The notes beneath the pieces are model-generated. The model did not search any database, had not been told where the DNA came from, and saw nothing but the letters and a program-made list of their open reading frames with translations. Shown here piece by piece: positions 1,464 through 57,926 of a stretch of 64,000 bases of DNA. The position numbers were made by a program, and so were the translations under genes. Origin of the DNA: Chthoniobacterales bacterium (GTDB lineage: Bacteria > Verrucomicrobiota > Verrucomicrobiia > Chthoniobacterales > UBA6821); assembly GCA_049282095.1 (NCBI GenBank), contig JBAPTI010000031.1, forward strand, positions 11,419 to 75,418. The letters are read 5' to 3'. The first letter of the stretch is position 1; each line of letters begins with the position of its first letter.

Positions 1464-2225
1464 CTATTTCCGGAAGCCGGGGAGGATCTTGTTGAGTTCG
1501 TTTCCAAGTTGCTTGGCTCCCTGCTGCTGAAGTTGCTGGAGTCCCTGCTTGGCAAGGGCGTTGATACCCTCCTTCGCGGCGGCATTAATGAGGGGGGTGA
1601 TGATCTGCATGGCGACATCACGGGCCGAGATGCCCTTGCCGGCGGTGCCGATGTTCTGCAGGCGGATATCCGGGATGGAGATGGTCTGGTTGACTTTCTG
1701 GTCGAGGGCGCTGGCGGCAAGATGAACCTTCGTTCCCGAGATCACGACTTCCTTGATGACAAATTTCTTGGAGGAGGCTTCCTGGGGCGGTTTCTCCTCC
1801 TTGGTCTTGGAGGAGGATCCGGCGGACTGGATGTTCTGCATGAGTTTCCCGAGGTTGTTACCCGACGGAGTTCCGATCAGGGCGATCTCGGGGCCGCGGA
1901 TGATCACGGAATTCACGACGATCGGATCCTTGAGGAGCGTCTCCTTGTCGACGCTGACAGCGATGCTTCCGAGTTTCAGGGCGAAGGGACCCTTGTAGCC
2001 TTCGGGATTGCCGATCACGAAGCCGCTGAGTGCACCGCTTCCGGAGAATGGGGAGAGCCTTGCCGACGCCAACCGCACATCGGTCCTGGTGATGGTGGGG
2101 CCGACGGTCTCGACCGCCTTTTTGATCAGTGAGTTCAGCGAGAAGTAGAGATAGCCGATCGTCCCGATGAACAGGACAACGACCACGGCGACGAGGGAGA
2201 GGAGGATTTTTTTCATGGGATTCAA
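1464..2225 (-). CDS. Hypothetical membrane-anchored protein (N-terminal TM helix)
   Basis: 253-aa ORF with an N-terminal hydrophobic helix (ILLSLVAVVVVLFIGTIGYLYF). I do not recognise a family with confidence. Confidence 0.55.
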   Translation of the reverse strand: MNPMKKILLSLVAVVVVLFIGTIGYLYFSLNSLIKKAVETVGPTITRTDVRLASARLSPFSGSGALSGFVIGNPEGYKGPFALKLGSIAVSVDKETLLKDPIVVNSVIIRGPEIALIGTPSGNNLGKLMQNIQSAGSSSKTKEEKPPQEASSKKFVIKEVVISGTKVHLAASALDQKVNQTISIPDIRLQNIGTAGKGISARDVAMQIITPLINAAAKEGINALAKQGLQQLQQQGAKQLGNELNKILPGFRK

Positions 2226-2277
2226 TCAGCGCTTTTAGTGGATCTAGTAGAGGGGAGCTTTGGGATGGATGGCAAGG

Positions 2278-11441: not shown

Positions 11442-11499
11442 CATTCCGGTGCCAAAGTGGCACCGATAGCTTATGGAACAAGTCCTTGAAGAACCACGG

Positions 11500-11763
11500 A
11501 TGCGCATTACTGCCCGCGTCACGGAAACCATGCGTGACACAATGGAACAGGCTGCTGAACTGATGGGGGCGACTCTCAATCAATTCATGGTGCAGATTGC
11601 TTATCTGGAGGCTCAACGCGTGATCGAGAGGGAGTCTGTCATCCGACTCTCACAGAAGGATGCAAGGAAAGTTCTCTCCCTGATCGATACCCCTCCCAAA
11701 CCCAACAAGCTTCTCAAGCAAGCGGTGAAGGAGTTTAAGGGATCCGTTCGTGCACGTCGTTGA
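11500..11763 (+). CDS. DUF1778 ribbon-helix-helix antitoxin (TacA-like)
   Basis: The opening MRITARVTETMRDTMEQAAELMGATLNQFMV is typical of DUF1778 antitoxins. It overlaps the downstream GNAT gene by 14 nt. Confidence 0.8.
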   Translation: MRITARVTETMRDTMEQAAELMGATLNQFMVQIAYLEAQRVIERESVIRLSQKDARKVLSLIDTPPKPNKLLKQAVKEFKGSVRARR

Positions 11764-12256
11764 ACTGCTTTCCAAGCGGCATGACCGCGAGGGATTTGAC
11801 TGCGGCAGTGAACCACTTAACCTCTTTCTCAGGCAAACGGCCCGACAGCATGCGGATCGGGGCATCTCCCGGACATTCGTCCTGACCGACGAGGAAGGTG
11901 ACCAGAAAACCATCCTCGGCTTTTTCTCGCTCAATCTCTGTCAGATCAAAGCCGAGTCGCTTGCTTCGAAAGAGTCAAAAAACCTGCCTAGGGACGTTGC
12001 CGGTGTCAGGTTGGGTAGATTGGCTGTTTCTCTGAATCATCAGCGCAAGGGATTGGGGCGTCTGTTGCTCGTGGCAGCCATGCAAAAATTTCTGGAGATC
12101 CATGGCGCTGCTGGAGGGATCGGACTCTTTGTTGATGCCAAGGACCTCGATGCCAAACGTTACTATGAGCAGTTCGGATTTGTTCCCATGCCATCGAATG
12201 ACCTAGAATTATTCTTGCCGTTCAAAACGATCCAGGAAGCCCTCAAAAAATCCTGA
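11750..12256 (+). CDS. GNAT-family acetyltransferase toxin (TacT/AtaT-like)
   Basis: N-terminal motif LSKRHDREGFDCGSEPLNLFLRQTARQH and a GNAT core (RLAVSLNHQRKGLGRLLL). It has a GTG start and is paired with the DUF1778 gene. Confidence 0.8.
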   Translation: MHVVELLSKRHDREGFDCGSEPLNLFLRQTARQHADRGISRTFVLTDEEGDQKTILGFFSLNLCQIKAESLASKESKNLPRDVAGVRLGRLAVSLNHQRKGLGRLLLVAAMQKFLEIHGAAGGIGLFVDAKDLDAKRYYEQFGFVPMPSNDLELFLPFKTIQEALKKS

Positions 12257-15303: not shown

Positions 15304-15328
15304 TCCCGGGGGACTTTTCCCCTTCCTA

Positions 15329-15604
15329 GGGAAGCGCTGATTAAATCCCATGAAGGCCGCTGAAGAGCATTTGCTGATTTTTGAAGGCGCGAGTGCTGGG
15401 CGATACCCGCAGCGGTCTCGCCCGAGCGAGCAACGCGGCAAAAATCAACAAATGGTTTCAGCCCTGCGGGTTGCGGAGATAACAGGCCGGGGTTTGCGTT
15501 GGCTTGGCACTTACAGCCCGCTGCGGGGATGCTCGTGCCAAGCCGCCTTGCCCGCGGCCCATTCTTCCCGCAACGGCCTCTATGCGATTTAATCAGCGTT
15601 TCCC
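15329..15604 (+). mobile_element. MITE, full copy (276 bp), 19-nt TIRs, TA flanks
   Basis: Left TIR GGGAAGCGCTGATTAAATC and right TIR GATTTAATCAGCGTTTCCC. A TA sits at 15327-28 and at 15605-06. The element is near-identical to 27240-27516 and 52515-52790. Strand denotes an arbitrary element orientation. Confidence 0.85.
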
Positions 15605-15611
15605 TAACGAC

Positions 15612-16316
15612 ATGACCCGCTCAGCGCTTCCCGCTTCTGCCGCCGTGATCGTGGGCGGCGGGTCAGGTAACCGTTTCGGCGGGGATAAGCTCACGGTGTC
15701 GCTGGCCGGCAAGCCTTTGATTGCCCACACGCTCTCCGCCTTTGAAGGAACAGCCGCCGTTTCCGCAATCGTGCTGGTCGTTCCCCCCGGGAGGGAGGAA
15801 GAGTTCCGCACGATCGCGAGCATTGAGGGGATCTCGAAACTGACTTCCGTGATTCCCGGGGGGGAGCATCGCCATGAATCGGTTTGCCGCGGCCTGGAAG
15901 CGCTTCCGTCCGAGGTTGGACTCGTCGCGATCCATGACGCGGCGAGGCCCCTGATCACTCCTAATCTCATTACCCGCTGCCTTGAGACGGCGGCCAAGGA
16001 GGGGGCTTCCGCCTTGGCGGCTCCGGTGACCGACACCCTGCATCGGATCGATGCATTGGGATGCGCGGCCGGTACTGTCGATCGCACCACGCTCCGGGCA
16101 ATGCAAACTCCCCAAGTATTTTGTGCGGCAGAGATCAGAGATCTACTTGCCTCCGTGTCAGGTAAGCCTACCGATGAGGTCTCGGTCGCCATGACCGCAG
16201 GGAAGAAGGTTTCCTTGGTCGAGCATCACGAACCGAATCTCAAGCTCACCTGGCCCCATGACGTCGTCATGGCCGAGGCCCTGCTGCGTGACAGGAAAAG
16301 GCAAAATAAAAAATGA
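15612..16316 (+). CDS. ispD: 2-C-methyl-D-erythritol 4-phosphate cytidylyltransferase
   Basis: AAVIVGGGSGNRFGGDKL and IHDAARPL motifs. The ORF-track N-terminal extension lies inside the MITE and was trimmed to ATG 15612. Confidence 0.88.
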   Translation: MTRSALPASAAVIVGGGSGNRFGGDKLTVSLAGKPLIAHTLSAFEGTAAVSAIVLVVPPGREEEFRTIASIEGISKLTSVIPGGEHRHESVCRGLEALPSEVGLVAIHDAARPLITPNLITRCLETAAKEGASALAAPVTDTLHRIDALGCAAGTVDRTTLRAMQTPQVFCAAEIRDLLASVSGKPTDEVSVAMTAGKKVSLVEHHEPNLKLTWPHDVVMAEALLRDRKRQNKK

Positions 16317-21741: not shown

Positions 21742-21960
21742 ATGAATCTGCTTTAGGAAAGGGCGGGAAGGGGCGTTGTCCCCAAAATCTTATTGAATAG
21801 TTTCGTCAAGAGATTGGATTTTGGGCTATTCGCTATTCTGAATGTGCTTCCATGGGATTTCCACCACCGAGCCCTTTGTCCCGAGAGGGCGGACAGAGAG
21901 TGGAGTGAGATTTTGAATCAGAAAGCAGGAAGACAGGAGGGGAGAAGGCGGTCTTTTGAC

Positions 21961-22064
21961 CGGCCGGGGGCTGTTTAGGCTTGGCGCTTTGCTTGCCCGG
22001 TCGCTGCTTCGCATCCGCTACGGCTTTCCGCAACGGGCTCTATGCGATTTAATCAGCGGTTCCC
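21961..22064 (+). mobile_element. MITE fragment (one end only, module-containing subtype)
   Basis: It ends in CTCTATGCGATTTAATCAGCGGTTCCC and contains the GCTTGCCCGGTCGCTGCTTCGCATCCGCTACGG module also present in the 43899-44433 and 57698-57795 copies. Confidence 0.75.
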
Positions 22065-23874: not shown

Positions 23875-24504
23875 TTACCGGCCGATGGAAAGCTTTGCCA
23901 TCAGATCGGTGGTCAGTGATTCCAGTTCGATGGAGACGACTTCAACGCGACGCGTGAAGTAGTTGTAGGCGACGAGGTTCGGGACGGCGACTCCGAGGCC
24001 GACGATGGTGCAGTTGAGCGCCTCGGAGATGCCGTTGGCCACGATCTGGGGATCGCCGTGTGCTCCGATGTTTCCGAAGATGCTGACAAGTCCCGAGAGG
24101 GTGCCGAGGAGGCCGAGCAGAGGGGAGATGCCTGTGGTGATCTCGAGGAAGACAAGGCCCGACTCGAGCCGTGAGATTTCGTGGCGGGCGCGGGTCTGGA
24201 CGGCGTCGAGGATCTCGTTGCGAGGCCAGTCACGATGCTGAAGGACGCTCATCAGGACGCGCGACAGGGGGGATGGTTCCGCCTGCAGCCTCTTCTGCAG
24301 GTTGTCCGTTGCACCTCCCTTGAACGAGCGAAGGGCGTCGATCACTCCGGGCGGAAGGGCGCTGTCCATCTTGATGAACCTGGCCCGCTGAAGGATCACC
24401 GCGAGGGAGAAGACCGAGAGGATCAGCAGGACATACATGAAGAATCCGCCCTGGACGAAGAACTGGATGAATCCGGGGGCCGCGGCGAGGAATGTGTGTG
24501 GCAT
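23875..24504 (-). CDS. exbB: MotA/TolQ/ExbB proton-channel protein
   Basis: Three TM helices and the conserved C-terminal region ISPLLGLLGTLSGLVSIFGNIG...ISEALNCTIVGLGVAVP. Confidence 0.85.
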   Translation of the reverse strand: MPHTFLAAAPGFIQFFVQGGFFMYVLLILSVFSLAVILQRARFIKMDSALPPGVIDALRSFKGGATDNLQKRLQAEPSPLSRVLMSVLQHRDWPRNEILDAVQTRARHEISRLESGLVFLEITTGISPLLGLLGTLSGLVSIFGNIGAHGDPQIVANGISEALNCTIVGLGVAVPNLVAYNYFTRRVEVVSIELESLTTDLMAKLSIGR

Positions 24505-24519
24505 GGCGTTGGTGGTATT

Positions 24520-25620
24520 TTAGTAAATGGTGAAGCTGTAGTCGATATCAAGGCATCCGTTCTGGAGTGTTGCCGCCACATCGGGCGGGATCGGTGGAAG
24601 CTTGGCATCCATGATCGAACGGACGCTGCAATCCGTCAAAGACTCATTGGAGTTGCTGCGAAGGACCTTCAGGGCGGTGACTTTGCCCGTCGGGGAGACC
24701 TTGAAGCTGAGATCGACCGTGCCGATGCTGAGAAGGCCCATCCGTTCCCCCACATAATAGTACCATCTCGATCCGATCGCATCGGCCACCGCCTTCTTGT
24801 AGCGGCCGATCGGCGTGGCCTCGGCAGCCACCGAGGAGCGGCCCCGGTTGGAGATGTTTCCGCGAATGACTGTCTGGCGGGTCTCGGACTGGTATCCCTT
24901 AGTAGCGCCGGAAGTGCCCGAAGTTACCGGGGGTGACGGCGGTTGGGAGGGCGATGGCGGAGAGGAAGGTGCCGTCGGTTGGGTGGGAGGAGGTTTCTGG
25001 GGAGGGGGTTGCATCTTCGGGGCATCAAGAAGCTTCAGGTTATTGGGAGGAGTCGGCGAGGGTGGCGTTGCGGAGGGTTGGGGCGTTGCTGTCGGCTGAG
25101 GTGTGGGCGAAGGAGGGGGAGTGGGAGCGGTTTTCTGGGTAGCGGTCTCCGGCGCGGCCGGGGAGGGGAGCGATGGTTGGGAAGGTGGTTGCGGTTGGGC
25201 GGGGCTTCCGGCCTGGCTCGCCGGTTTTTCGCCGGGCGTGTGCTTCTGGTTGCGGAGTTCCAGAGAGGCTTGGGTCATTCCCTGCTGGGAAGGGAGGGCG
25301 AGCGATCCATCGGGTGGAAGTTCGCTTGCCGCCTTGGTGTTCTGGTCCGATTGGAAGGGGGCGTTCTCGGGTGCCTTGGAGGAGACCTCCTTGGCCTCGA
25401 TGAAAGGCCGGTCTTTCTTCTCCAGCGGGGTGATCTCCAGCGTGACCTCGGGGGGCGGACTCTTCTCTGCTTTTTGTGTTACGAACTTTCGGGCAAATAG
25501 GATCGCCAGCAGAATGATCAGTGATGCGTGGATTAGGAAGGAGAGGGCGAGGTAGAAGGGGAATCGCTTGCGCTTCCGCTGTTCCTGCCCTGGAGATGGT
25601 TTGGTGCGGAGAGAGTTCAT
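24520..25620 (-). CDS. TonB-like energy transducer (N-terminal TM anchor, long Pro-rich spacer, TonB_C-like domain)
   Basis: TM helix FYLALSFLIHASLIILLAILF, a Pro/Thr/Ser-rich region of about 130 aa, and a C-terminal YKKAVADAIGSRWYY...VDLSFKVSPTGKV fold-like segment. Confidence 0.7.
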   Translation of the reverse strand: MNSLRTKPSPGQEQRKRKRFPFYLALSFLIHASLIILLAILFARKFVTQKAEKSPPPEVTLEITPLEKKDRPFIEAKEVSSKAPENAPFQSDQNTKAASELPPDGSLALPSQQGMTQASLELRNQKHTPGEKPASQAGSPAQPQPPSQPSLPSPAAPETATQKTAPTPPPSPTPQPTATPQPSATPPSPTPPNNLKLLDAPKMQPPPQKPPPTQPTAPSSPPSPSQPPSPPVTSGTSGATKGYQSETRQTVIRGNISNRGRSSVAAEATPIGRYKKAVADAIGSRWYYYVGERMGLLSIGTVDLSFKVSPTGKVTALKVLRSNSNESLTDCSVRSIMDAKLPPIPPDVAATLQNGCLDIDYSFTIY

Positions 25621-26534
25621 GCGGTTGCCTCTCTTCCTCGAGCTCTTGCTCGTGCTTTGCCTTCCGTGGTCGTTTTCCTTTTCTGCGGAAGGGGGAGGTT
25701 ACCGATGCGGGCCTGATGAAAGAGCCACTGCTGGATGTATCCCGCGTAGGGACCGAGCAGGCGCTCGCCGTATCGCTCAAGCTGCTCGGGCGTGGCCTTC
25801 TTTGATTTCGGGGAACGGAAGGAGGAGAGGATGCGCCCGATCCAGACATCGACGGGAACGGCCTCGAGTCGTTCGTAGGCGAAGAGCAGGATGCAGTTGG
25901 CTACCTTCCTGCCGATGCCCGGCAAGGTGCAGAGGGCGGCGCGGGCCTCGGCGGTTTCCATCCGCACCAGATCCGAGGGGTCGAATCTGCCCTCGGCGAT
26001 CATCCGTGCGGAACCCAGCAGTCCCTTGGCACGGAAACCAAGCCCGCACTTGCGGAGAGCCTCTTCCGAGGTTGAGGCGAGGGCCTCGGGCGAGGGGAAT
26101 GCCGGAATCGGAGTGTCGGCGAGCCATTGGCCGTAGTTCTTCCGCAGGGCGAGACTCATCTGCCTGATGTGGGCCACCTGCTTCATGGGGGAGAGAATGA
26201 AGCTGGCGAGGCACTCCCAGTGGGGCTGCCTCATGATGCGGAGTCCCCGGCATGCCATGGCGGCATCATGTACCACGGCATGACCGGCACAGGAACGACG
26301 GATCGCTTGAAGGTCGTGATCGAGGGCGAAGTAATGTCGGATTCCCTTCTCGCCGATCCCCCGGTAGTGGAGGAGCTTGCCTTGCTGGCGGACGAACAGG
26401 GATTCCGATCCGATGCATCCGGTATAGCCTTCCTCCAGCGGTGTCCAGTGGAAGGTCTGGCCGCTCTCCAGAGTCATCCGGAGATCGAACTCCGGGCACT
26501 CCATCACCCCCGTGGCGCCGGAATTCATCCTCAT
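25617..26534 (-). CDS. ogg: 8-oxoguanine DNA glycosylase (Ogg-type, HhH-GPD)
   Basis: N-terminal LESGQTFHW and the HhH-GPD region LCTLPGIGRKVANCILLFAY..LEAVPVDVW. ATGA overlaps occur at both ends (26531-34, 25617-20). Confidence 0.8.
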   Translation of the reverse strand: MRMNSGATGVMECPEFDLRMTLESGQTFHWTPLEEGYTGCIGSESLFVRQQGKLLHYRGIGEKGIRHYFALDHDLQAIRRSCAGHAVVHDAAMACRGLRIMRQPHWECLASFILSPMKQVAHIRQMSLALRKNYGQWLADTPIPAFPSPEALASTSEEALRKCGLGFRAKGLLGSARMIAEGRFDPSDLVRMETAEARAALCTLPGIGRKVANCILLFAYERLEAVPVDVWIGRILSSFRSPKSKKATPEQLERYGERLLGPYAGYIQQWLFHQARIGNLPLPQKRKTTTEGKARARARGREATA

Positions 26535-27238
26535 CGCGCGAAGTAGCTGAGATTCTCAAGCTCGATGGCGAGGTTGACGTTGTTCACGGCAACGGTCTCG
26601 GGCAACTGGAGGAGCGTGGGCGAGAAGTTGAGGAGGGCATGGATACCGCTTCCGACGAGATGTTCGGCAACCCGCTGGGCCTCCTCCCCTGGGACGCAGA
26701 GGATCGCCATGCGGATGTCATGCTGCCTGATGACCCTGCGCATCTCCTCCATCCGCTGGACTTCAATCCGACCCCTCTGTGCTTTTTTCGGCTTCTTGTC
26801 GAAGGCCGCGATGATCTCGAACCCCTCCTTGGCAAATCCCCTGTAGCTCAGGAGCGCCTGTCCGAGGTTACCGGCACCGACCAAAATGACAGGTTGGAGG
26901 CTCGCGCGCCCCAGAATTTCCTCAAGGCGGTTACGGAGCAGGATGACTTCGTAGCCGGTGCCGCGTTTCCCAAGCGGGCCGCAGCAGGCGAGATCCTTGC
27001 GAAGTTGGGCCGGTTGCACGCCGGCCACGCCGGCGAGAGCCGTTGAGGAGACGATGCTTGTGCGGTTGGCCACCATGAGGCCCAGGCATCGCAGATAGAG
27101 GGAGAGCCGGTAGACGGTCTTCTTGGGAATCTCCCCGGCGGAATGGGCCTGTCGCTCATGATGCCTGACCCGCGGTACGTGTTCCTGCCGGGGGGATTTC
27201 CCGGTCACCTTGAGTGAACGATGGCCTTCGCGGCTCAT
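26531..27238 (-). CDS. rex: Redox-sensing transcriptional repressor Rex
   Basis: wHTH (IPKKTVYRLSLYLRCL) plus Rossmann VILVGAGNLGQALL. The start ATG 27236-38 is supported by the reconstructed ATGA overlap with miaB. The ORF-track N-terminal extension lies in the MITE. Confidence 0.85.
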   Translation of the reverse strand: MSREGHRSLKVTGKSPRQEHVPRVRHHERQAHSAGEIPKKTVYRLSLYLRCLGLMVANRTSIVSSTALAGVAGVQPAQLRKDLACCGPLGKRGTGYEVILLRNRLEEILGRASLQPVILVGAGNLGQALLSYRGFAKEGFEIIAAFDKKPKKAQRGRIEVQRMEEMRRVIRQHDIRMAILCVPGEEAQRVAEHLVGSGIHALLNFSPTLLQLPETVAVNNVNLAIELENLSYFAR

Positions 27239-27239
27239 A

Positions 27240-27516
27240 GGGAAGCACTGATTAAATCGCATAGAGGCCGTTGCGGGAAGAATGGGCCGTGGGCAAGGCG
27301 GCTTGGCGCGAGCATCCCCGCAGTGGGCTGTAAGCGCCAAGGCAACAAAGCCCCCCGGCCGGTTATCTCCGCAACCCGGAGGGCTGAAGCCATTTGTCGA
27401 TTTTTGTGGCGTTGCTCGCTCGGGCGAGACCGCTGCGGGTATCGCCCAGCACTCGCGCCTTCAAAAATCAGCAAATGCTCTTCAGCGGCCTTCATGGGAT
27501 TTCATCAGCGCTTCCC
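27240..27516 (-). mobile_element. MITE, full copy (277 bp), TA flanks, inserted at the miaB/rex junction
   Basis: TIRs GGGAAGCACTGATTAAATC and GATTTCATCAGCGCTTCCC. A TA sits at 27238-39 and at 27517-18. The interior is collinear with 15329-15604 in reverse orientation. Confidence 0.88.
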
Positions 27517-28944
27517 TAAGGTCTCCGATCCCTCTCCCAGTATGGCGGGATCACCATAGAGGGTGGAGGCGCTGGCGGAGGTGATCTCGACATCGAAGAT
27601 CTGACCATGGAAGCGGCTCCCTCCCTCCAAGATCACGATCTTGTTGGTGCGGGTGCGACCGGCCAGTCGGGAGGGGTCGTTCCTGCTCGGGCCCTCGCAG
27701 AGGATTTGCTGCCTGGTGCCGACGCATGCCTCGAGGTGGCGTGAGGCGGAGGCGTTCACCACCGCGAGGAGGTCCTGATTGCGGAACTCCTTCACCTCTT
27801 CGGAAAGCTGTCCGTCCATCACGGCGGCGGGTGTGTCGCCGCGCTTGGAGTAGCGGAAGACAAAGGCACCGTCGAAGCCGATCTCCTCGGCAAGGTCGCG
27901 GGTGGCCCTGTAATCCTCATCCGTTTCGCCCGGGAAGCCGACGATGATGTCGGTGCTGACTGCGATGCCGGGGCGGGCAGCCCGGAGATCCGCCACCAGC
28001 TTTCGGAAAGAGGCTGCCGTGTAGGGACGGTGCATGGCCTTGAGGATCCGGTCGCTGCCAGACTGGAGGGGAAGGTGGACATGCTCCATGAGTTTCGGAA
28101 GCCGCGCGAAGCACTCCACGAGATCCTTGCGGAATCCCATCGGATGGGGGGAGGTGAAGCGGATGCGTTCGATTCCCTCGACGGCGTTGAGCGCCTCCAG
28201 GAGTTGCACGAAGGGGCTCTTGCCATCCACCTTGGGGAATTCGTGGCGTCCGTAGAGATTGACGATCTGGCCGAGCAGCGTCACCTCCTTGATCCCTCTG
28301 CCGGCGAGGGTGCGGGCTTCCTCGACGATTTCTGCGATCGGTCGGCCGCGCTCGGGTCCGCGCGTCGTCGGGACAATGCAGAAGGTGCAGTGCATGTTGC
28401 ATCCCTGCATGATTGAGATGAACGCGGTGGCGGCCTTTTTCTCGGTGGGGAGATGCTCGCGGATGGTGTTCTGCGATCCCTCCTCGGCGGCGATGTCGAC
28501 GATCGGGGCCATTGGGGCCATTGGGGCGATCTGATTGATGCTTCCCCCCAGTTCGGTTGCATCCTCGGCGGCAAAGGCCTCTTCACGACGGCGGAGCGCC
28601 TCTTCCACATGGTCGGCGACACGGTGAAACTTCTGGGTCCCCACCACGAGATCGACATGGGGTGAGCGGTTCCCCAGATCATCCCCCAGGCGCTGCGCCA
28701 TGCATCCCATGTAGCCCAGGACGAGCTTCGGCTTCTCCCGGCGGAGCTTGCGGAGCATGCCCATCTTCCCGATCGCTTTCTGCTCGGCCATGTCGCGGAC
28801 GCTGCACGTGTTGAGCAGGATCACGTCGGCATCCCGCTCGTTGTCAACGAGACGGTGACCGCGGTCCTGAAGATCGCGCGCCACCTGTTCGGAGTCGCGC
28901 TCGTTCATCTGGCAACCGTAGGTCTTGATGAAGACGCTGGGCAT
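27505..28944 (-). CDS. miaB: tRNA-i6A37 methylthiotransferase MiaB
   Basis: MTTase N-domain (FIKTYGCQMNERDSE), radical-SAM GCNMHCTFCIVP and a TRAM domain. The last 3 codons plus the stop (GKR*) are encoded by the MITE TIR. The start is set at ATG 28944. Confidence 0.9.
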   Translation of the reverse strand: MPSVFIKTYGCQMNERDSEQVARDLQDRGHRLVDNERDADVILLNTCSVRDMAEQKAIGKMGMLRKLRREKPKLVLGYMGCMAQRLGDDLGNRSPHVDLVVGTQKFHRVADHVEEALRRREEAFAAEDATELGGSINQIAPMAPMAPIVDIAAEEGSQNTIREHLPTEKKAATAFISIMQGCNMHCTFCIVPTTRGPERGRPIAEIVEEARTLAGRGIKEVTLLGQIVNLYGRHEFPKVDGKSPFVQLLEALNAVEGIERIRFTSPHPMGFRKDLVECFARLPKLMEHVHLPLQSGSDRILKAMHRPYTAASFRKLVADLRAARPGIAVSTDIIVGFPGETDEDYRATRDLAEEIGFDGAFVFRYSKRGDTPAAVMDGQLSEEVKEFRNQDLLAVVNASASRHLEACVGTRQQILCEGPSRNDPSRLAGRTRTNKIVILEGGSRFHGQIFDVEITSASASTLYGDPAILGEGSETLGKR

Positions 28945-43129: not shown

Positions 43130-43139
43130 GGGAAGGCGA

Positions 43140-43333
43140 AAGGCGAACCAAGTCGCTGGGAAGCGGCGCGGAAGACTGTGAGTGCAGCGAACAGCCCTGA
43201 AAGGCGGCACTGCTTGCCGGGAGGCAAGTGCCGTCAAAGGCGAACCAAGTCGCTGGGAAGCGGCGCGGAAGACTGTGAGAGCAGCGAACAGCCCTGAAAG
43301 GGCGCCACGGCTAGCCGGGAGGCAACTGGCGTG
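43140..43333. repeat. Tandem direct repeat, 2 x 97 bp
   Basis: The units start at 43140 and 43237. The first ~66 nt are identical except for one position, and the last ~30 nt diverge. Each unit ends in a GGGA-looped hairpin. Confidence 0.85.
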
Positions 43334-43898: not shown

Positions 43899-44433
43899 AA
43901 GCGCTGATTAAATCGCATAGAGGCCGTTGCGGGAAGCCGTAGCGGATGCGAAGCAACGACCGGGCAAGCCATGGGCCGCGGGCAAGGCGGCTTCGCGGGC
44001 GCATCCCCGCAGTGGGCTGCCGTAACGGATGCGAAGCAACGGCCGGGCAAGCAAAGCGCCAAGCCAACACAGTTGGCCCCCGTGCCACGCCACGAAGCCA
44101 AAGGCTTTGTGGCCCCCGGCTGGTTATCTCCGCAACCCGGAGGGCTGAAGCCAGTTGTCGATTTTTGCCTCGCCGTCTCCCGACGGTCTCGTCCTCCGGA
44201 CTGCTTCGCAGGCTACGACGCGGCTCCCGCCGCTCGTCGTTGCGGCGATGCTCGCTCGGGCGAGACCGCTGGGGGTATTGACTCGCTCGCTCCCGCTCGG
44301 CTCGCCCTGACGGGTTTGCCTCCGGCAAATCTACCCAAGCCGCACCCGCAGCTACGTGTTGCCCAGCACTCGCGCCTTCAAAAATCAGCAAATGCTCTTC
44401 AGCGGCCTTCATGGGATTTAATCAGCGTTTCCC
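43899..44433 (-). mobile_element. MITE, mosaic long copy (~535 bp) with at least 5 internal insert modules
   Basis: It shares both ends and the backbone with the 276-bp copies. It carries two direct copies of the 33-nt module CCGTARCGGATGCGAAGCAACGRCCGGGCAAGC plus other inserts. The left TIR lacks the terminal GGG. Confidence 0.8.
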
Positions 44434-50151: not shown

Positions 50152-52515
50152 ATGAATTCCCCAGTTCCCATGACTCCTGCCGCGAATCATCCTGCCCCGG
50201 GGCATGGCCATCACGCCCATGCGGGCGGATTTGACTGGCGGGAGTATTACTTTGCGCTGAAGGCCCGTGCATGGATCGTCATTGCGTGCGTGATCCTTGC
50301 GACGCTCTGGGGAGTCTTCTCTGCGGCGACCCAGCAGGGACTCTACACCGCGCGCTGCGTCCTCTTCATCGAACAGGTCAAGAGCCGGGTGCTCAACACC
50401 AAGGTGGAGGATGTCCGCGATGACCAGATCAAGTCGATCGACATGATCAACACCCTCGTCGACCTCCTCCGCAGCTATCCCTTCGCGCTTCGTGTGGTCA
50501 ACCACCTCCAGCTTGCCCGCGACCGCGAGTTTCTGGCCGCGGTCGGACTTTCCGGGAAAGAGACATCCCCGGAACGCGCCGCCGGCGCCCTTGCGAGGAT
50601 GGTCAGCCCCAGCTACCGGCTCAACACCCGCCTCATCGACATCAACCTCACCACCCGGAACCCCTCCCTCTCCGTCAAGCTGGCCAATGCCTACGCCGAG
50701 GAATATCTCCGCTACATCCATGACCAGAGGGCCGAGGCCACCCGTTCCGCCAGCACCTTCCTCATGGAAGAGTCCGACAGGTTGCGCAAGAAGATGAAGG
50801 CATCCGAAGAGGGGATGCAGAACTTCCGCGAGCGCGAGCGTGCGGCATCCATGGAGTCGATGCTGCTCGAGGCGCAGAACCAGCTCACCCAGCTCTCCGC
50901 CCGCCAGAGCGCCATCCAGTCCAAGCTCACCCAGATCAACAGTGACCTCGAGATCGCCCGCGCGAACAAGGGGAAGACCGAGGAACTCCTCCGCCTTCCC
51001 AGCGTCGCCGGAGAGCCCAAGGTTGCCGCGCTGGTCGCCCAGCAGTCGAGCCTGGACAAGCAGTTCATCCTCATCCAGCAACGCTACCGCGCCAAGCACC
51101 CCGCCTACATCAACATCAAGACCCAGCTCGACCTCGGCAAGTCCGAGCTGGACAAGGTGCTCAACGACATCGTCGGCCTTCTCGATTCCATCCGCAGCAG
51201 CCTGCTGGCCCAGCAGGCCGCCGCCAATGCCGAGCGCGAGAGCGCCGAGAAGCGCCTGCTCGAGGTCACCAGCAAGTCCATCGAGTACAACGACCTCAAG
51301 CGCGAGTTGGAGAGCGACACCGCCCTCTACGGCGCCGTCATTGGACGCATCAAGGAAGTCGATGTCACCAAGGAACTCTCCGAATCCCCCGTCGTGATCC
51401 AGGAAAAGGCGAGCGGAGCCTTCCCTGTCAGCAAGCCCCCCCTCAAGATCCTCCTCCAGGCCATGCTATCCGGATTGGCCGTGGGTGTCGGCATCGTCCT
51501 TGCCCTGCACAAGCTTGATACCAGCACCAAGAGCGTCGATCAGCTCGAGCAGCTCACCGGTATCGACGTCGCCGCGGCCATCCCGCAGATCGGCGGCAAT
51601 GCCGCCGCCCGCTTCGGCATCTTCACCAAGGAACAGCAGCAGCAACTGCTCGGATCCTGGAAATCGGCCAAGACCATGATCCTTGACGCATCGGTGCCTC
51701 CGCGTGCGCGACTCTCGCGGATCCACGAGATCCTCAGTCCAGCCATCGCCATGATCGCCCACCCCCACATCTCCACCGTGCTTCCGCGCGGCGGCGAGTT
51801 GGTGGTGAAACAGGACCGCAGCGGCGTCGTGGCGGAAGCCTTCCGCTCGCTTCGCGCCAGTGTGGCCATGAACGCCCGCGTCGAGAGCCAGCGCTCCTTC
51901 CTCCTGACCAGCGCCATCCCGTCGGAGGGCAAGTCCTTCTGCACCTCCAACTTCGCCGTCACCCTCGCACAGCAGGGACTCAGGACTCTCCTCATCGATG
52001 CCGATCTCCGCAAGCCCACCATCTCCGGCATCTTCTTCGGGATGAACCGCAAGCCCGGACTCACCGAAGTCCTGATCGGATCGGCCTCATTGACGGATGC
52101 CGTGCACTCCTCGGGCGTCGAGGGACTCTCGATCCTCACCGCCGGGGGGCGCTCCTCCAATCCCTCCGAACTACTGGCCGGAAAGCCCTTCCGTGATTTC
52201 ATGGTCGAGGCCCTCAGGCAGTATGACCGCGTCGTCATTGATTCCGCCCCCATCCTGGCTGTGAGCGACACGCTGCTTCTCGCCCCCTCCGTCGATGTCG
52301 TCTGCCTCGTAGTCCGCGCCTTCATGACCCCGCGCAAGATGATCCAGCGGGCTCTCAAGTCGCTTCAGGATATCCATGTGAAGCCCGCCGGACTTGTCTT
52401 CAACTGCATCCCTGCCGGCAGCGAGGCCTATTCCTACTCCGGCAAGTATTACGGCTCCTACGGCAGCAAAGGAGTGTATGGAAGTCCGGTTGAAGGGGAA
52501 AAAGCCGAAGGTTAA
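50152..52515 (+). CDS. Polysaccharide co-polymerase / BY-type tyrosine autokinase (Wzc/GumC-like)
   Basis: N-terminal Wzz-type TM and coiled-coil periplasmic domain. The C-terminal kinase has Walker A SAIPSEGKS, Walker B VVIDSAP and a Tyr-rich tail (YSYSGKYYGSYGSKGVYG). Confidence 0.88.
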   Translation: MNSPVPMTPAANHPAPGHGHHAHAGGFDWREYYFALKARAWIVIACVILATLWGVFSAATQQGLYTARCVLFIEQVKSRVLNTKVEDVRDDQIKSIDMINTLVDLLRSYPFALRVVNHLQLARDREFLAAVGLSGKETSPERAAGALARMVSPSYRLNTRLIDINLTTRNPSLSVKLANAYAEEYLRYIHDQRAEATRSASTFLMEESDRLRKKMKASEEGMQNFRERERAASMESMLLEAQNQLTQLSARQSAIQSKLTQINSDLEIARANKGKTEELLRLPSVAGEPKVAALVAQQSSLDKQFILIQQRYRAKHPAYINIKTQLDLGKSELDKVLNDIVGLLDSIRSSLLAQQAAANAERESAEKRLLEVTSKSIEYNDLKRELESDTALYGAVIGRIKEVDVTKELSESPVVIQEKASGAFPVSKPPLKILLQAMLSGLAVGVGIVLALHKLDTSTKSVDQLEQLTGIDVAAAIPQIGGNAAARFGIFTKEQQQQLLGSWKSAKTMILDASVPPRARLSRIHEILSPAIAMIAHPHISTVLPRGGELVVKQDRSGVVAEAFRSLRASVAMNARVESQRSFLLTSAIPSEGKSFCTSNFAVTLAQQGLRTLLIDADLRKPTISGIFFGMNRKPGLTEVLIGSASLTDAVHSSGVEGLSILTAGGRSSNPSELLAGKPFRDFMVEALRQYDRVVIDSAPILAVSDTLLLAPSVDVVCLVVRAFMTPRKMIQRALKSLQDIHVKPAGLVFNCIPAGSEAYSYSGKYYGSYGSKGVYGSPVEGEKAEG

Positions 52516-52790
52516 GGAAGCGCTGATTAAATCGCATAGAGGCCGTTGCGGGAAGAACTGGCCGCGGGCAAGGCGGCTTGGCACGAGCATCCCCGCAGCG
52601 GGCTGTAAGTGCCAAGCCAACGCAGCCCCCGGCCTGTTATCTCCGCAACCCGCAGGGCTGACGTCATTTGTCGATTTTTGCGGCGTTGCTTGCTAGGGCG
52701 AGACCACTGCGGGTATCGCCCAGCGCTCGCGCCTTCAAAAATCAGCAAATGCTCTTCAGCGGCCTTCATGGGATTTAATCAGCGTTTCCT
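52515..52790 (-). mobile_element. MITE, full copy (276 bp), TA flanks
   Basis: TIRs AGGAAGCGCTGATTAAATC and GATTTAATCAGCGTTTCCT. A TA sits at 52513-14 and at 52791-92. The first element base completes the TAA stop of the Wzc-like gene. Confidence 0.88.
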
Positions 52791-52847
52791 TAAGGAACCG
52801 CAGTTCCCTGCTCTCACTTTCTCCTTGGTTCTTTCTTCCCCTTCAGG

Positions 52848-52885
52848 GTTTTAGCCTTTAGCCTTCGGCCTTTAAACCTTTCCCC
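52848..52885 (+). repeat. Period-7 leader array GTTTTAG CCTTTAG CCTTCGG CCTTTAA ACCTTTC CCC directly abutting the uxs ATG
   Basis: Read directly from the sequence. The same GTTTTAG-initiated array type occurs at 54625, 56319 and 57816. Confidence 0.75.
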
Positions 52886-53821
52886 ATGCGTATCCTCATC
52901 ACCGGCGGAGCCGGATTCCTAGGTTCCCACCTCTGTGACCGCCTCATCGAGCAGGGTCACGACATCATCTGCCTCGACAACTTCTTCACCGGTCGCAAGG
53001 CCAACATTCAGCATCTCGTCGGCAATCCCCACTTCGAACTCGTCCGTCACGACGTGATCGACCCGTTCAAGTTCGAGGTCGATCGCATCTACAACCTCGC
53101 CTGCCCCGCTTCCCCTCCTCACTACCAGTACAACCCTATCAAGACCATGAAGACCTCCGTGGTGGGGGCCATCAACTGCCTCGGCCTCGCCAAGAGGGTC
53201 AAGGCACGCGTCTTCCAAGCCTCCACCTCCGAGGTTTACGGGGATCCCAACGTCCATCCCCAGCCCGAGGCCTACTGGGGCCATGTGAACCCCATCGGAC
53301 TACGCTCCTGCTACGACGAGGGGAAGCGCGCGGCCGAGACCCTCTTCTTCGACTATCACCGCGAGAACGGGGTCGACATCCGCGTCATCCGCATCTTCAA
53401 CACCTACGGCCCCCGCATGCTCCCCGACGACGGACGCGTCGTCTCCAACTTCATCGTCCAGGCACTTCAGGGCAAGGACCTCACCGTCTACGGAGAGGGC
53501 TCCCAGACACGCTCCTTCTGCTATGTCGACGACCTCGTCGACGGCTTCATGCGCTTCATGGAGCAGGAGAAGATCGTCGGCCCCATGAACCTCGGTAACC
53601 CCGGCGAGTTCACCATGCTCCAGCTCGCCGAACTCGTCCTCAAGAAGGTAGGCGGCAAGAGCAAGATCACCCACCTCCCGCTTCCTTCCGACGATCCGAA
53701 GCAGCGCCGTCCCGACATCACCCTCGCCAAGGAAACCCTCGGCTGGGAACCGAAAGTCCCTCTCGAAGCCGGCATTGAGAAGACCATCGCGTATTTCAGC
53801 GAAGCGCTTAAGAAAGGCTAA
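52886..53821 (+). CDS. uxs: UDP-glucuronate decarboxylase (UDP-xylose synthase)
   Basis: SDR with [14 protein letters not shown], the catalytic YDEGKR motif, and UXS-like sequence along its full length. Confidence 0.9.
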
Positions 53822-53910
53822 AGGCGAAAGGCTAAAGGCTAAAGGCTAAAGGCTAAAGGCTAAAGGCTAAAGGCTAAAGGCTAAAGGCTAAAGGCGAAAG
53901 GCGAAAGGAT
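53813..53910 (+). repeat. Heptanucleotide tandem array, 14 units (AAAGGCT x10, AAAGGCG x3, AAAGGAT x1)
   Basis: Units were counted from 53813 in steps of 7. The array starts in the last codons of uxs and contains its TAA stop (53819-21). Confidence 0.95.
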
Positions 53911-54113
53911 GGAACCAACGGGCGTTCCAAGTCTCTTGGAAGAGATGAGGAGAAATTTCCGTAGGCAAGCCCGTGAGGGCGGCACGGTTTTGCGAGTTCA
54001 AAGTGCCGTTCAACCGAGCGGGAGCTATCGAGTGCAAAACATGCGCGGAAGAGCCCGCGAAGCGGGGCCCGGAGTTCGGGTTGAAAGGCTCTCTTAAAAA
54101 AACGCCGTCTGCA

Positions 54114-54467: not shown

Positions 54468-54582
54468 CCGGGGCTATTTCCTTCCCTCTTCTTGTTTTAT
54501 CCTTTATCTTCCCCTCTTTGCCCATCAGAACCTCTCTCGCCCTTATCCTTCCGTCTTTCCCACATTCCCGTGTTTCTGATTT

Positions 54583-54660
54583 TTTAGCATTTCACCTTTA
54601 GCCTTTCCCTTTTTTCTCTTTCAGGTTTTAGCCTTCAGCATTTCACCTTCAGCCTTTCCT
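54583..54660 (+). repeat. Period-7 pyrimidine-rich leader array (TTTAGCA TTTCACC TTTAGCC TTTCCCT ... GTTTTAG CCTTCAG CATTTCA CCTTCAG CCTTTCC) abutting the ugd ATG
   Basis: Eleven 7-nt units were read from 54583 to 54659. It contains stretches complementary to the AAAGGCT array. Confidence 0.75.
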
Positions 54661-57048: not shown

Positions 57049-57381
57049 ATGGTATTTATTGAATTCCCCGCTTTTACCAAGACCATCACCAAACTGCCTG
57101 ATGAAGACTATGCCACCTTTCAGCATGAACTCCTCGTTGACCCAGAAATGGGCGATCTCATCCGTGGCACGGGTGGATTTCGCAAAGCTCGAATGGCCTT
57201 TCCAAGCGTGGGAATCGGTAAGAGCGGAGGAGCTCGCGTCATCTACCTCCATATCAAAGAACTACAGACCATCATCCTGGTAACACTCTATGCAAAATCA
57301 AAAAAATCAGACCTCAGTCGCGCGGAAGAAAACGAACTCCGTTTCCTCGCTGCGCAAATCCGCAGCACTCTCGGTGCTTGA
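57049..57381 (+). CDS. RelE/HigB-2-like toxin
   Basis: 110-aa ORF with F..F.K....L.....F...L...P..G.LI.GTGG.RK.R and GKSGGARVIY motifs typical of HigB-2-type toxins. The gene order is toxin first. Confidence 0.7.
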   Translation: MVFIEFPAFTKTITKLPDEDYATFQHELLVDPEMGDLIRGTGGFRKARMAFPSVGIGKSGGARVIYLHIKELQTIILVTLYAKSKKSDLSRAEENELRFLAAQIRSTLGA

Positions 57382-57682
57382 TGGATTGGAGTCATTCAGT
57401 GGTGCTAGCCTGATTGAGGCGACACAGGAGGGGGTCGCAGCTCTTAAGGCAAAAAAAACACTGCGAACCAGTAAGATCGCTCCCCCTGTCACTCTTGATC
57501 CCCGGCAGATCGCCGAAATCCGTTCCTCGCTGAATGCCAGCCAAGGGGTTTTTGCCTCCTACCTCGGTGTCAGCAAAGCGGCGGTCGTGGCTTGGGAATA
57601 CGGAGTACGTCAGCCCTCAGGAGCGGCCTTGAAGCTCCTGTCGATTGCCCGTAAGAACCCCAGCGTCCTAGTCGCCTCCTGA
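57374..57682 (+). CDS. XRE-family HTH antitoxin (HigA-2-like)
   Basis: The HTH IRSSLNASQGVFASYLGVSKAAVVAWEYGVRQPSGAALKLLSIARKNP is typical of the family. The start is assumed at GTG 57374, overlapping the toxin stop, but TTG 57386 is also possible. Confidence 0.65.
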   Translation: MLDGLESFSGASLIEATQEGVAALKAKKTLRTSKIAPPVTLDPRQIAEIRSSLNASQGVFASYLGVSKAAVVAWEYGVRQPSGAALKLLSIARKNPSVLVAS

Positions 57683-57697: not shown

Positions 57698-57795
57698 GGG
57701 AGCCGCTGATTAAATCGCATGGAAGCCGTTGCGGGAAGCTGTAACGGATGCGAAGCAACGGCCGGGCAAGCCATGGACCGCATCCCTGCGGCTTG
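57698..57795 (-). mobile_element. MITE fragment (one end, module-containing subtype)
   Basis: GGGAGCCGCTGATTAAATCGCATGGAAGCCGTTGCGGGAAG followed by the CTGTAACGGATGCGAAGCAACGGCCGGGCAAGC module. The other end is absent. Confidence 0.75.
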
Positions 57796-57926
57796 GTGCT
57801 CGACTCGGTTTCCCCGTTTTAGCCTTAAGCCTTTAAACTTTAGCCTTTCGCTTTTGACGGCACTTGCAGGGAGGATCTAAAGAGATTCCAATTGATGGTT
57901 TACTTTAGGGCGATATAAATAAAGCG

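What the first reader, a model, noticed from the sequence alone, without database searches (positions are those of the whole stretch)
27236..27519. MITE inserted exactly into the ATGA stop/start overlap of miaB and rex; the empty site can be reconstructed and both ORFs stay open
Deleting 27240-27516 and one of the two flanking TA dinucleotides (27238-39, 27517-18) gives, on the minus strand, ...TCG GAG ACC TTA TGA GCC GC... In that reconstructed sequence miaB ends ...S-E-T-L-stop, and the rex ATG is the ATG of TTATGA. That is a classic 4-nt ATGA translational-coupling overlap. In the actual sequence MiaB reads into the terminal inverted repeat and gains G-K-R-stop, because the TIR GGGAAGCGCTGA supplies an in-frame TGA. 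Rex keeps its ATG because the A of that codon is part of the duplicated TA. This is base-level evidence that the element is, or was, mobile and duplicates TA. It also shows that rex, ogg, tonB and exbB are now separated from miaB by 279 bp of repeat.
Basis: seen in the sequence. Interest (0 to 1): 0.85.

Follow-up and report, generated by a model that had tools for sequence, protein, structure and literature searches.

The report
MITE inserted in miaB/rex gene overlap
A 277-bp non-coding jumping element landed exactly on the two-base TA inside the four-base overlap that joins the miaB and rex genes of a soil/freshwater Verrucomicrobium, leaving both genes intact; close relatives still carry the empty site, so this is a clean example of a known kind of event, not a new kind of system.

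Summary
Window 27240-27516 is a 277-bp element with terminal inverted repeats (GGGAAGCRCTGAT...), flanked by TA on both sides. It lies between miaB, which now ends ...SETLGKR at a TGA inside the repeat, and rex, whose ATG uses the A of the second TA.

It belongs to a multi-copy family with seven loci in the window. All three intact copies are flanked by TA/TA.

Relatives with 94-97% identical DNA carry the empty site, with a 4-nt ATGA miaB-stop/rex-start overlap: GTATGA or CTATGA, not the predicted TTATGA.

A second lineage carries a 343-bp family member on the same TA. That copy groups with a window copy at another locus, so two independent hits are likely. One strain group with identical Rex protein holds both empty and occupied alleles.

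Other copies sit on TA of stop codons. The genome is TA-poor, and miaB/rex is the only one of the operon's three ATGA overlaps that contains TA.

This is a new, undescribed member of the known TA-duplicating (IS630/Tc1-mariner-like) bacterial MITEs. No transposase partner was found.

Effects on rex expression are inferred only. The most interesting detail is an 86-codon ORF in the element that starts 9 nt after the new miaB stop and ends on the original ATGA.

The parts
27240..27516 (-). MITE copy C, 277 bp. Its 'CCCATG' end faces miaB and its 'GCGATTTAATCAG' end faces rex.
   Evidence: It is 93.5%, 91.7% and 93.1% identical to copies A, E and D. No Rfam family matches.
27517..27518 (.). TA target-site duplication on the miaB side. 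It forms the last two bases of the MiaB codon TTA.
   Evidence: TA/TA flanks are also seen at copies A and E, at L098 and at L099.
27238..27239 (.). TA target-site duplication on the rex side. Its A is the first base of the rex ATG.
27476..27516 (-). Terminal inverted repeat arm on the miaB side. The 13-nt core is GGGAAGCGCTGAT, and imperfect pairing extends to about 40 nt. It contains TGA TGA in the miaB frame and an ATG at 27495-27493.
27240..27280 (-). Terminal inverted repeat arm on the rex side (...ATCAGTGCTTCCC).
27505..28944 (-). miaB, 479 aa. It ends ...SETLGKR*, and the last 3 codons plus the stop (27507-27505) come from the repeat.
   Evidence: Identical to NCBI MFZ0434934.1.
26531..27238 (-). 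rex, 235 aa, intact, with its ATG at 27238-27236.
   Evidence: Identical to NCBI MFZ0434933.1. dN/dS against relatives is 0.13-0.17.
27235..27495 (-). 86-codon ORF inside the element, in the miaB frame. Its ATG lies 9 nt after the new miaB stop. Its stop is the original TGA (27237-27235), which overlaps the rex ATG.
   Evidence: The insertion is 279 bp = 93 codons. Whether it is translated is unknown.
23875..26534 (-). Downstream genes ogg (25617-26534), tonB (24520-25620) and exbB (23875-24504). The rex/ogg and ogg/tonB junctions are also ATGA overlaps, but they read CGATGA and GCATGA and so contain no TA.
15329..15604 (+). MITE copy A, 276 bp, with TA/TA flanks. It lies between yqeY (stop at 15303) and ispD, 5 nt upstream of the ispD ATG at 15612.
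52515..52790 (-). MITE copy E, 276 bp, with TA/TA flanks. It is inserted in the TA of the stop codon TAA (52513-52515) of a Wzz/tyrosine-kinase gene, and the stop is preserved.
43899..44433 (-). MITE copy D, a 535-bp modular variant with a decayed left end, upstream of a rhodanese gene.
21959..22064 (.). Truncated family member B, with one terminal repeat only.
57698..57781 (.). Truncated family member F, with one terminal repeat only.
2212..2234 (-). Solo terminal-repeat fragment (21/23 identity) at the start of a DUF748 gene.

Best explanation
The feature is a non-autonomous transposable element (MITE) of a TA-duplicating family. It most likely depends on an IS630/Tc1-mariner-type transposase encoded elsewhere.

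It integrated into the TA of the sequence N-TA-TGA, where the miaB stop codon overlaps the rex start codon, in a Chthoniobacterales genome. Because TA is duplicated, the miaB side keeps its last sense codon (TTA) and the rex side keeps its ATG. The terminal repeat begins GGGAAGCGCTGA, so MiaB reads three extra codons (GKR) and then stops.

The insertion survives because it destroys neither protein. The MiaB C-terminal tail is naturally hypervariable, and rex stays under purifying selection.

Shown: the element, its family, the TA duplication, the empty sites, presence/absence among near-identical strains, and the intact ORFs.

Inferred: miaB and rex are still co-transcribed. The element folds into a long hairpin in the mRNA that pairs the two repeat arms next to the rex AUG. 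rex has lost its original upstream sequence (GGAG 5 nt before the ATG) and its direct termination-reinitiation coupling. Its translation must therefore rely on hairpin opening by ribosomes that finish miaB, on the internal bridging ORF, or on initiation that does not need that upstream sequence.
For: Anatomy.

Family: there are seven loci in 64 kb. TA/TA flanks occur at 3 of 3 intact window copies, at L098 and at L099. In metagenomes, 112 gene-called 'hypothetical proteins' of Verrucomicrobiota/Chthoniobacterales are translations of family members. None of the 112 carries a precomputed Pfam domain and none exceeds 269 aa.

Empty sites with an ATGA overlap.

The occupied allele is seen independently. 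A Logan contig from SRR28003389 breaks inside the element with an identical junction. A 343-bp member lies complete on one ENA contig at the same TA.

Polymorphism: the identical Rex protein P0257 is encoded next to the empty (L096) and the occupied (L097, L098) junction.

Tolerance: MiaB tails after ...TLYGDPAI differ in nearly every lineage. For rex, L097 vs L098 (both occupied) differ by 8 synonymous and 0 non-synonymous changes.

Target logic: TA is depleted, 1160 observed against 2633 expected. The other two ATGA overlaps of the operon lack TA. Other copies sit on stop-codon TAs.

RNA: predicted fold of -151.8 kcal/mol, z = -7.4, with the repeat arms and the TAs paired. The consensus scan found no sigma-70-like promoter and no intrinsic terminator.
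Against: No autonomous element or transposase with matching terminal repeats was found. The IS630 assignment therefore rests on the TA duplication alone.

No empty allele reads exactly TTATGA. The codons just upstream of the site differ more between alleles than the rest of the gene, so the exact pre-insertion sequence of this lineage is reconstructed, not observed.

Nothing here measures transcription or translation, so every statement about rex expression is inference.
Confidence: 0.9

Rival explanations
1. There were two independent insertions. Different subfamily members (277 bp in the window lineage, 343 bp in the L098 lineage) hit the same TA in the same orientation. That would make the miaB/rex overlap a hot spot, or one of very few tolerated TA sites.
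For: In miaB the window is closest to empty-site strains (L082 96.3%, L087 96.0%). The other occupied strains L088 and L098 are closest to empty strains L089 and L096 (96-98%) and only 94-95% identical to the window.

The L098 element carries two 33-bp modules that the window copy lacks. In diagnostic sites it groups with window copy D at another locus: 4 shared sites, against 1 shared with copy C. No derived changes in the terminal repeats are shared.
Against: The 9 nt next to the element are more alike between the two occupied alleles (GAGACCTTA and GAGCGCTTA) than between each and the empty alleles of its own clade.

L088 shows that recombination close to the junction does occur.

Gene conversion between element copies could mimic the subfamily signal.
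Confidence: 0.62
2. There was a single old insertion. The occupied allele later spread between lineages by homologous recombination, or was lost by precise excision, and the element was remodelled internally.
For: The flanks of the occupied alleles are similar. L088 looks like a recombinant: the L096-type flank GATCAC joined to the L098-type element. The orientation is the same in both lineages.
Against: This needs both 33-bp modules to be removed precisely, producing exactly the structure of copies A and E. It also needs several precise excisions with only a 2-bp duplication. The element tree is ((A,E),C,(D,L098)).
Confidence: 0.33
3. The 279 bp is an assembly artefact: a repeat wrongly placed in a metagenome-assembled genome.
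For: The source is a MAG, and short-read contigs tend to break in this repeat.
Against: The same junction bases occur in an independent Logan assembly of SRR28003389. A complete element flanked by miaB and rex lies on a single ENA contig in another lineage. The junctions are precise to the base, with a TA duplication.
Confidence: 0.02
4. The element at this site has been co-opted. Its ORF, its hairpin, or both act as a relay that keeps rex translation dependent on miaB translation, or as a processing or attenuation site that uncouples rex-ogg-tonB-exbB from miaB.
For: The ORF 27495-27235 starts 9 nt after the new miaB stop, in the same frame, and ends on the original ATGA. The same is true of the 343-bp element in L098, where the insertion is 345 bp = 115 codons.

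The repeat stem places the miaB stop and the rex AUG about 12 bp apart. rex remains under purifying selection in occupied strains.
Against: The GC-rich interior of the element has few stop codons in four of six frames, and the total stop count is what the composition predicts. An open frame is therefore weak evidence. No ribosome-binding motif precedes the internal ATG. Copies A and E have the frame broken near the end. There are no expression data.
Confidence: 0.12

Closest known systems
Correia elements / NEMIS of Neisseria (TA-duplicating MITEs)
   Same: Both are short non-coding elements with long terminal inverted repeats and a TA target duplication, present in many copies next to or between genes. 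Correia elements are co-transcribed and fold into a long hairpin that is an RNase III substrate, and they can alter neighbouring gene expression (review PMC2229807; the rest from general knowledge).
   Different: The host phylum and the length (277-535 bp against ~100-155 bp) differ, and this family is modular. Sequence relatedness to Correia elements was not tested here. RNase III processing and promoter activity are not shown here.
RUP of Streptococcus pneumoniae (MITE mobilised by IS630-Spn1)
   Same: Both insert at TA. RUP is the best-documented link between a bacterial MITE and an IS630-family transposase (PMC2229807).
   Different: For RUP the matching IS is known. Here no partner IS was found. 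RUP is 107 bp and mostly intergenic.
Rickettsia palindromic elements and other MITEs that create in-frame fusions (ERIC intragenic copies, QMITE1)
   Same: In both, element sequence is read as part of a host protein (review PMC10969869). Here MiaB gains GKR from the repeat.
   Different: RPEs are translated through inside the protein. Here the terminal repeat stops translation after three codons, and stop codons occur in all three forward frames within 33 nt of the element end. The host protein is only trivially modified.
ATGA stop/start overlaps (translational coupling by termination-reinitiation)
   Same: The empty alleles, and the rex/ogg and ogg/tonB junctions of the same operon, have the classic 4-nt overlap.
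   Different: In the occupied allele the overlap is split by 279 bp. Whether coupling persists is unknown.

Membership tests
Bacterial MITE (non-autonomous terminal-inverted-repeat element) | Small size and no transposase gene | tested here: met
   Family members are 277 bp (276-535 bp across copies). The only Pfam match of the ORF spanning copy D lies in the flanking rhodanese gene. None of the 112 homologous called ORFs carries a precomputed Pfam domain, and the longest is 269 aa.
Bacterial MITE (non-autonomous terminal-inverted-repeat element) | Terminal inverted repeats | tested here: met
   GGGAAGCGCTGAT and GGGAAGCACTGAT lie at the two ends. Pairing extends imperfectly to about 40 nt.
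Bacterial MITE (non-autonomous terminal-inverted-repeat element) | Target-site duplication at the ends of homology | tested here: met
   TA/TA flanks occur at copies A, C and E, at L098 and at L099. Decayed copies B, D and F show TT or a lost end.
Bacterial MITE (non-autonomous terminal-inverted-repeat element) | Multiple dispersed copies | tested here: met
   Seven loci in the 64-kb window, and copies in other Verrucomicrobiota genomes.
Bacterial MITE (non-autonomous terminal-inverted-repeat element) | Presence/absence at an orthologous site, as evidence of mobility | tested here: met
   Empty alleles: L082, L083, L087, L089-L093 and L096. Occupied alleles: window, L081, L088, L097 and L098. 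The Rex protein is identical in L096 and L098.
IS630 / Tc1-mariner-derived MITE | 2-bp TA duplication | tested here: met
   The empty sites hold one TA and the occupied sites hold two.
IS630 / Tc1-mariner-derived MITE | Terminal repeats matching those of an IS630-family element with a DDE transposase in the same or a related genome | not testable with these tools
   No Pfam transposase domain in the 24 window ORFs scanned. The repeat pattern is absent from viral contigs. The genome and metagenome scan quotas were already used.
Correia / NEMIS family | Sequence homology to the Neisseria element | not tested
   No Correia sequence was available for comparison. Membership is not claimed, only functional resemblance.
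In-frame intragenic MITE (RPE-like) | Element translated through as an internal segment of the host protein | tested here: not met
   The MiaB frame meets TGA TGA at element positions 10-15. Only 3 residues are added.
ATGA translational-coupling overlap (pre-insertion state) | Stop of the upstream gene overlaps the ATG of the downstream gene by 4 nt on the same strand | tested here: met
   Seen directly in the empty alleles and in the reconstructed window site. Actual coupling is not testable here.

The most novel reading that the evidence does not exclude
The element is tolerated, and perhaps recurrently fixed, at this junction because it rebuilds the coupling it breaks. Ribosomes finishing miaB at the repeat-borne TGA would melt the repeat stem. 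They would then either restart at the element's own ATG 9 nt downstream and translate an 86-codon bridge ORF that ends on the original ATGA, or simply expose the rex AUG at the base of the stem. On this reading, family members whose length keeps the frame (279 and 345 bp at this site; all five length differences between the 277- and 535-bp forms are multiples of three) would be 'polarity-proof' operon passengers.
Probability: 0.12. Interest if true: 0.7.

Novelty: new member of a known kind. Interest (0 to 1): 0.4.

Why it matters
This is a base-resolved natural example of how a selfish element can sit inside an operon's tightest junction without killing either gene. Empty and occupied alleles coexist in wild populations of an uncultured Chthoniobacterales lineage.

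It shows where a TA-specific element can survive in a TA-poor, GC-rich genome: on stop codons and on xTA-TGA overlaps. It documents an abundant, undescribed modular MITE family in Verrucomicrobiota that gene callers routinely mis-annotate as hypothetical proteins.

The paired alleles are a ready-made natural experiment on what happens to translational coupling and operon polarity when 279 bp of hairpin is inserted. The element kind itself is well known.

Tried and rejected
- Exact look-ups of the window's Rex (235 aa and 269 aa forms) found nothing, although the 235-aa sequence (P0259) later turned up as a member of the Rex cluster. The ogg product led to one Logan contig that breaks inside the element.
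- A metagenome scan for the empty site (CTGGGAGAG N7-13 TATGAGCCGCG) returned three unrelated chance matches. This used the only metagenome scan.
- The genome-collection scan with MiaB reached only relatives at 80% identity or less. The best of these (L003) lacks rex at this position and L001 lacks rex and ogg, so they say nothing about the junction.
- An Rfam search of the region gave only sub-threshold chance hits. The promoter/terminator consensus scan found nothing.
- The terminal-repeat pattern is absent from viral contigs and from the first 86 loci fetched. A later BLAST of the element against 95 loci found it only in L081 and L088.
- I looked for a transposase among window ORFs and found none.
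- I considered that the element's long open frame indicates a real protein, and rejected this as unsupported. Four of six frames are nearly stop-free in the GC-rich interior, and the total stop count matches the composition.
- Literature searches found no description of this family or of a MITE in an ATGA overlap within the held library. That library is incomplete.
Full report
**What is there**

On the minus strand the window reads ...GGA TCG GAG ACC TTA|GGGAAGCGCTGATGAAATCCCATGAAGG ... GCGATTTAATCAGTGCTTCCC|TA TGA GCC GCG. The 277 bp at 27240-27516 begin and end with inverted copies of GGGAAGCRCTGAT and are flanked by TA at 27517-18 and 27238-39.

The upstream ORF is MiaB (UPF0004, Radical_SAM and TRAM domains). 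The downstream ORFs are Rex, OGG, TonB and ExbB. MiaB ends ...SETLGKR, with its stop TGA at 27507-27505 inside the repeat. The rex ATG is 27238-27236, and its A belongs to the second TA. Deleting the element and one TA gives ACC TTA TGA GCC, a 4-nt ATGA stop/start overlap.

**Is it more than chance, and is the rex start real?**

The 13-nt end pattern occurs 8 times in the window against 0.37 expected, and a 16-nt version occurs 11 times against 0.09 expected. BLAST and alignment define seven loci:
- three intact copies: A 15329-15604, C 27240-27516 and E 52515-52790, 92-94% identical;
- a 535-bp modular variant, D 43899-44433;
- two truncated copies, B and F;
- one solo end at 2212-2234.

In the three intact copies, similarity stops exactly at the repeat ends, and each is flanked by TA/TA.

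Rex homologues of this clade carry an N-terminal extension that starts MSR... at the aligned position. NCBI's annotation of the source MAG (Chthoniobacterales bacterium; MFZ0434933 Rex 235 aa, MFZ0434934 MiaB 479 aa) uses the same start and stop.

**The empty site**

Close relatives were reached through exact-protein look-ups. L082 (NCBI GCA_964648625.1; Rex 97% identical) and L083 read ...CTGGGAGAGAGATCCGTATGAGCCGCGG. L087 reads ...GAGGGATCCCTATGAGCC. L089-L093 and L096 read ...GGGATCCGATCACGTATGAGCC.

In all of them the miaB TGA overlaps the rex ATG by 4 nt, and a single TA sits where the window has TA-element-TA. A relative with 87% identical Rex shows the same 4-nt overlap by coordinates.

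None of 120 cluster representatives or 14 cluster members of MiaB ends ...ETLGKR, apart from the window's own protein. The tail after ...TLYGDPAI is different in almost every lineage. The literal TTATGA was not seen in an empty allele. It is, however, also the reconstructed site of the second occupied allele described below.

More distant relatives (MiaB 80% and 74%) lack rex at this position altogether and are uninformative.

**The occupied allele elsewhere**

A Logan contig from SRR28003389 starts inside the element and has the identical rex-side junction.

In a second clade (miaB 94-95% identical to the window), contig L098 carries a complete 343-bp family member on the same TA and in the same orientation...GAG CGC TTA|TGGAATCGCTGAT...GCGCTTCCC|TA TGAGCC. 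MiaB there ends ...SERLWNR at the same repeat-borne TGA. L097 has the same rex-side end. L088 has the same miaB-side end, on a flank that looks recombinant. The Rex protein P0257 is identical in L096 (empty) and in L097/L098 (occupied), so presence/absence segregates among very close strains.

**One insertion or two?**

In miaB the window is closest to empty strains (96%), and L088/L098 are closest to other empty strains (96-98%). The L098 element has two 33-bp modules absent from the window copy. In diagnostic sites the element tree is ((A,E),C,(D,L098)): L098 shares 4 sites with window copy D at another locus and 1 with copy C at the same locus. This favours two independent hits by different subfamily members, at about 0.6.

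Against that, the 9 nt adjoining the element are more alike between the occupied alleles than between each and the empty alleles of its own clade. L088 also shows that recombination occurs right at the junction. A single old insertion with allele exchange therefore remains possible, at about 0.3.

**Why this site**

The genome is 59% G+C and strongly TA-depleted, with 1160 TA observed against 2633 expected. The operon has three ATGA overlaps, but rex/ogg reads CGATGA and ogg/tonB reads GCATGA. Only miaB/rex has a last codon ending in TA.

Other family members also sit on boundary TAs:
- Copy E is on the stop codon TAA of a Wzz/tyrosine-kinase gene.
- A 351-bp member in another Verrucomicrobiota genome is on the stop codon TAG of an MFS gene, where TA plus the element's first G regenerates TAG.
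- Copy A is 5 nt upstream of the ispD start.

Gene-boundary TAs are thus where insertions of this family are seen to persist. Whether that reflects target preference or survival cannot be separated here.

**What it is**

It is a TA-duplicating MITE. Size, terminal repeats, duplication, copy number and insertion polymorphism were all tested and met. A TA duplication is the hallmark of IS630/Tc1-mariner transposition (established knowledge; RUP/IS630-Spn1 and Correia elements in PMC2229807). No partner transposase was found in the window or among 112 protein-database hits. Those hits are simply translations of family members, called as hypothetical proteins in Verrucomicrobiota/Chthoniobacterales assemblies. 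The superfamily assignment is therefore inferred from one feature. No Rfam family matches, and I found no published description of this family in the held library.

**How it probably works at this locus (inference)**

The consensus scan finds no sigma-70-like promoter or intrinsic terminator, so read-through transcription from miaB is the simplest expectation. As RNA, the element folds into a very stable structure (-151.8 kcal/mol, z = -7.4). The two repeat arms and the TAs pair, which places the A of the rex AUG at the base of the stem.

The insertion removed the native sequence upstream of rex, which had GGAG 5 nt before the ATG. It replaced it with ...CAGTGCTTCCCT, which has no purine-rich motif.

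rex nevertheless stays intact and constrained. dN/dS is 0.13-0.17 against relatives. Between the two occupied strains L097 and L098 there are 8 synonymous and 0 non-synonymous changes.

This ATG opens an 86-codon ORF running through the whole element to the original TGA at 27237-27235, which overlaps the rex ATG. This works because the insertion is 279 bp, or 93 codons. The 343-bp element in L098 does the same, with 345 bp or 115 codons. This could relay translational coupling.

The evidence for that is weak, however. The GC-rich interior has few stops in four of six frames, and the overall stop count is as expected from composition. No ribosome-binding motif precedes the ATG, and copies A and E have the frame interrupted near the end.

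One observation is unexplained. All five length differences between the 277-bp and 535-bp forms (33, 33, 39, 75 and 81 nt) are multiples of three.

**Comparison and verdict**

The element works like Correia/NEMIS and RUP elements: TA duplication, long hairpin, placement inside transcription units. Its three-residue addition to MiaB is a minimal form of the MITE-host ORF fusions reviewed in PMC10969869. It is not an RPE-like read-through insertion, because the repeat carries stops in every forward frame within 33 nt.

It is a new member of a known kind. Interest is moderate (0.4). It rests mainly on the exact placement in a stop/start overlap, the coexisting empty and occupied alleles, the probable recurrence at one dinucleotide, and the bridging ORF as a testable idea.

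Noticed in passing
window 2212-2234 (minus strand): A solo 23-nt fragment of the MITE terminal repeat (AAGCGCTGATTGAATCCCATGAA, 21/23 identity) lies at the start of a DUF748 gene. The ATG inside the repeat motif CCCATG (2216-2214) appears to be the gene's start codon (MKKILLSLVAVV...).
   Followed up: partly
window 52513-52792: MITE copy E is inserted in the TA of the stop codon TAA of a 787-aa Wzz/tyrosine-kinase gene (50152-52515). The stop is kept because TA plus the first base of the element again spells a stop.
   Followed up: yes
L099 9978-10332: In a different Verrucomicrobiota genome from lake metagenomes, a 351-bp family member sits on the TA of the stop codon TAG of an MFS transporter gene. 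The same locus recurs in ten samples.
   Followed up: partly
window 15327-15614: MITE copy A lies between yqeY (stop at 15303) and ispD, only 5 nt upstream of the ispD ATG. It has the same orientation relative to the downstream gene as the miaB/rex copy.
   Followed up: partly
window 43899-44433 vs 27240-27516: The 535-bp variant differs from the 277-bp form by five insertions of 33, 33, 39, 75 and 81 nt, all multiples of three. The frame starting at the repeat ATG stays open across all 535 bp. Database 'hypothetical proteins' show many further in-frame module combinations.
   Followed up: partly
window 26531-26534 and 25617-25620: The rex/ogg and ogg/tonB junctions are also ATGA overlaps (CGATGA, GCATGA). 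The operon therefore had three consecutive 4-nt overlaps, and only the one containing TA was hit.
   Followed up: yes
L003 4046-7609; L001 4001-6362: In the nearest species-level relatives found in the genome collection (MiaB 80% and 74% identical), rex is absent between miaB and ogg, or both rex and ogg are absent. rex at this position is therefore lineage-specific.
   Followed up: no
window 53799-53915; also 52833-52872, 54479-54518, 54610-54649, 57808-57847: A tandem heptamer (AAAGGCT, about 14 copies), with related TTTAGCC-type runs scattered nearby, some of them next to MITE copies E and F.
   Followed up: no
window 43139-43204 and 43236-43301: A 66-nt direct repeat, 98% identical, with 97-nt spacing, just upstream of the region that holds MITE copy D.
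   Followed up: no
window 11473-12256 and 57290-57682: A TacA-like antitoxin followed by a GNAT acetyltransferase (a probable toxin-antitoxin pair), and an MqsA-like HTH protein gene ending beside the truncated MITE copy F.
   Followed up: no
L088 1430-1513 vs L096 1594-1612 and L098 340-360: The miaB-side flank of L088 (GATCACTTT) combines the empty-allele flank of L096 (GATCAC) with the element of L098. This suggests recombination within a few bases of the insertion.
   Followed up: partly
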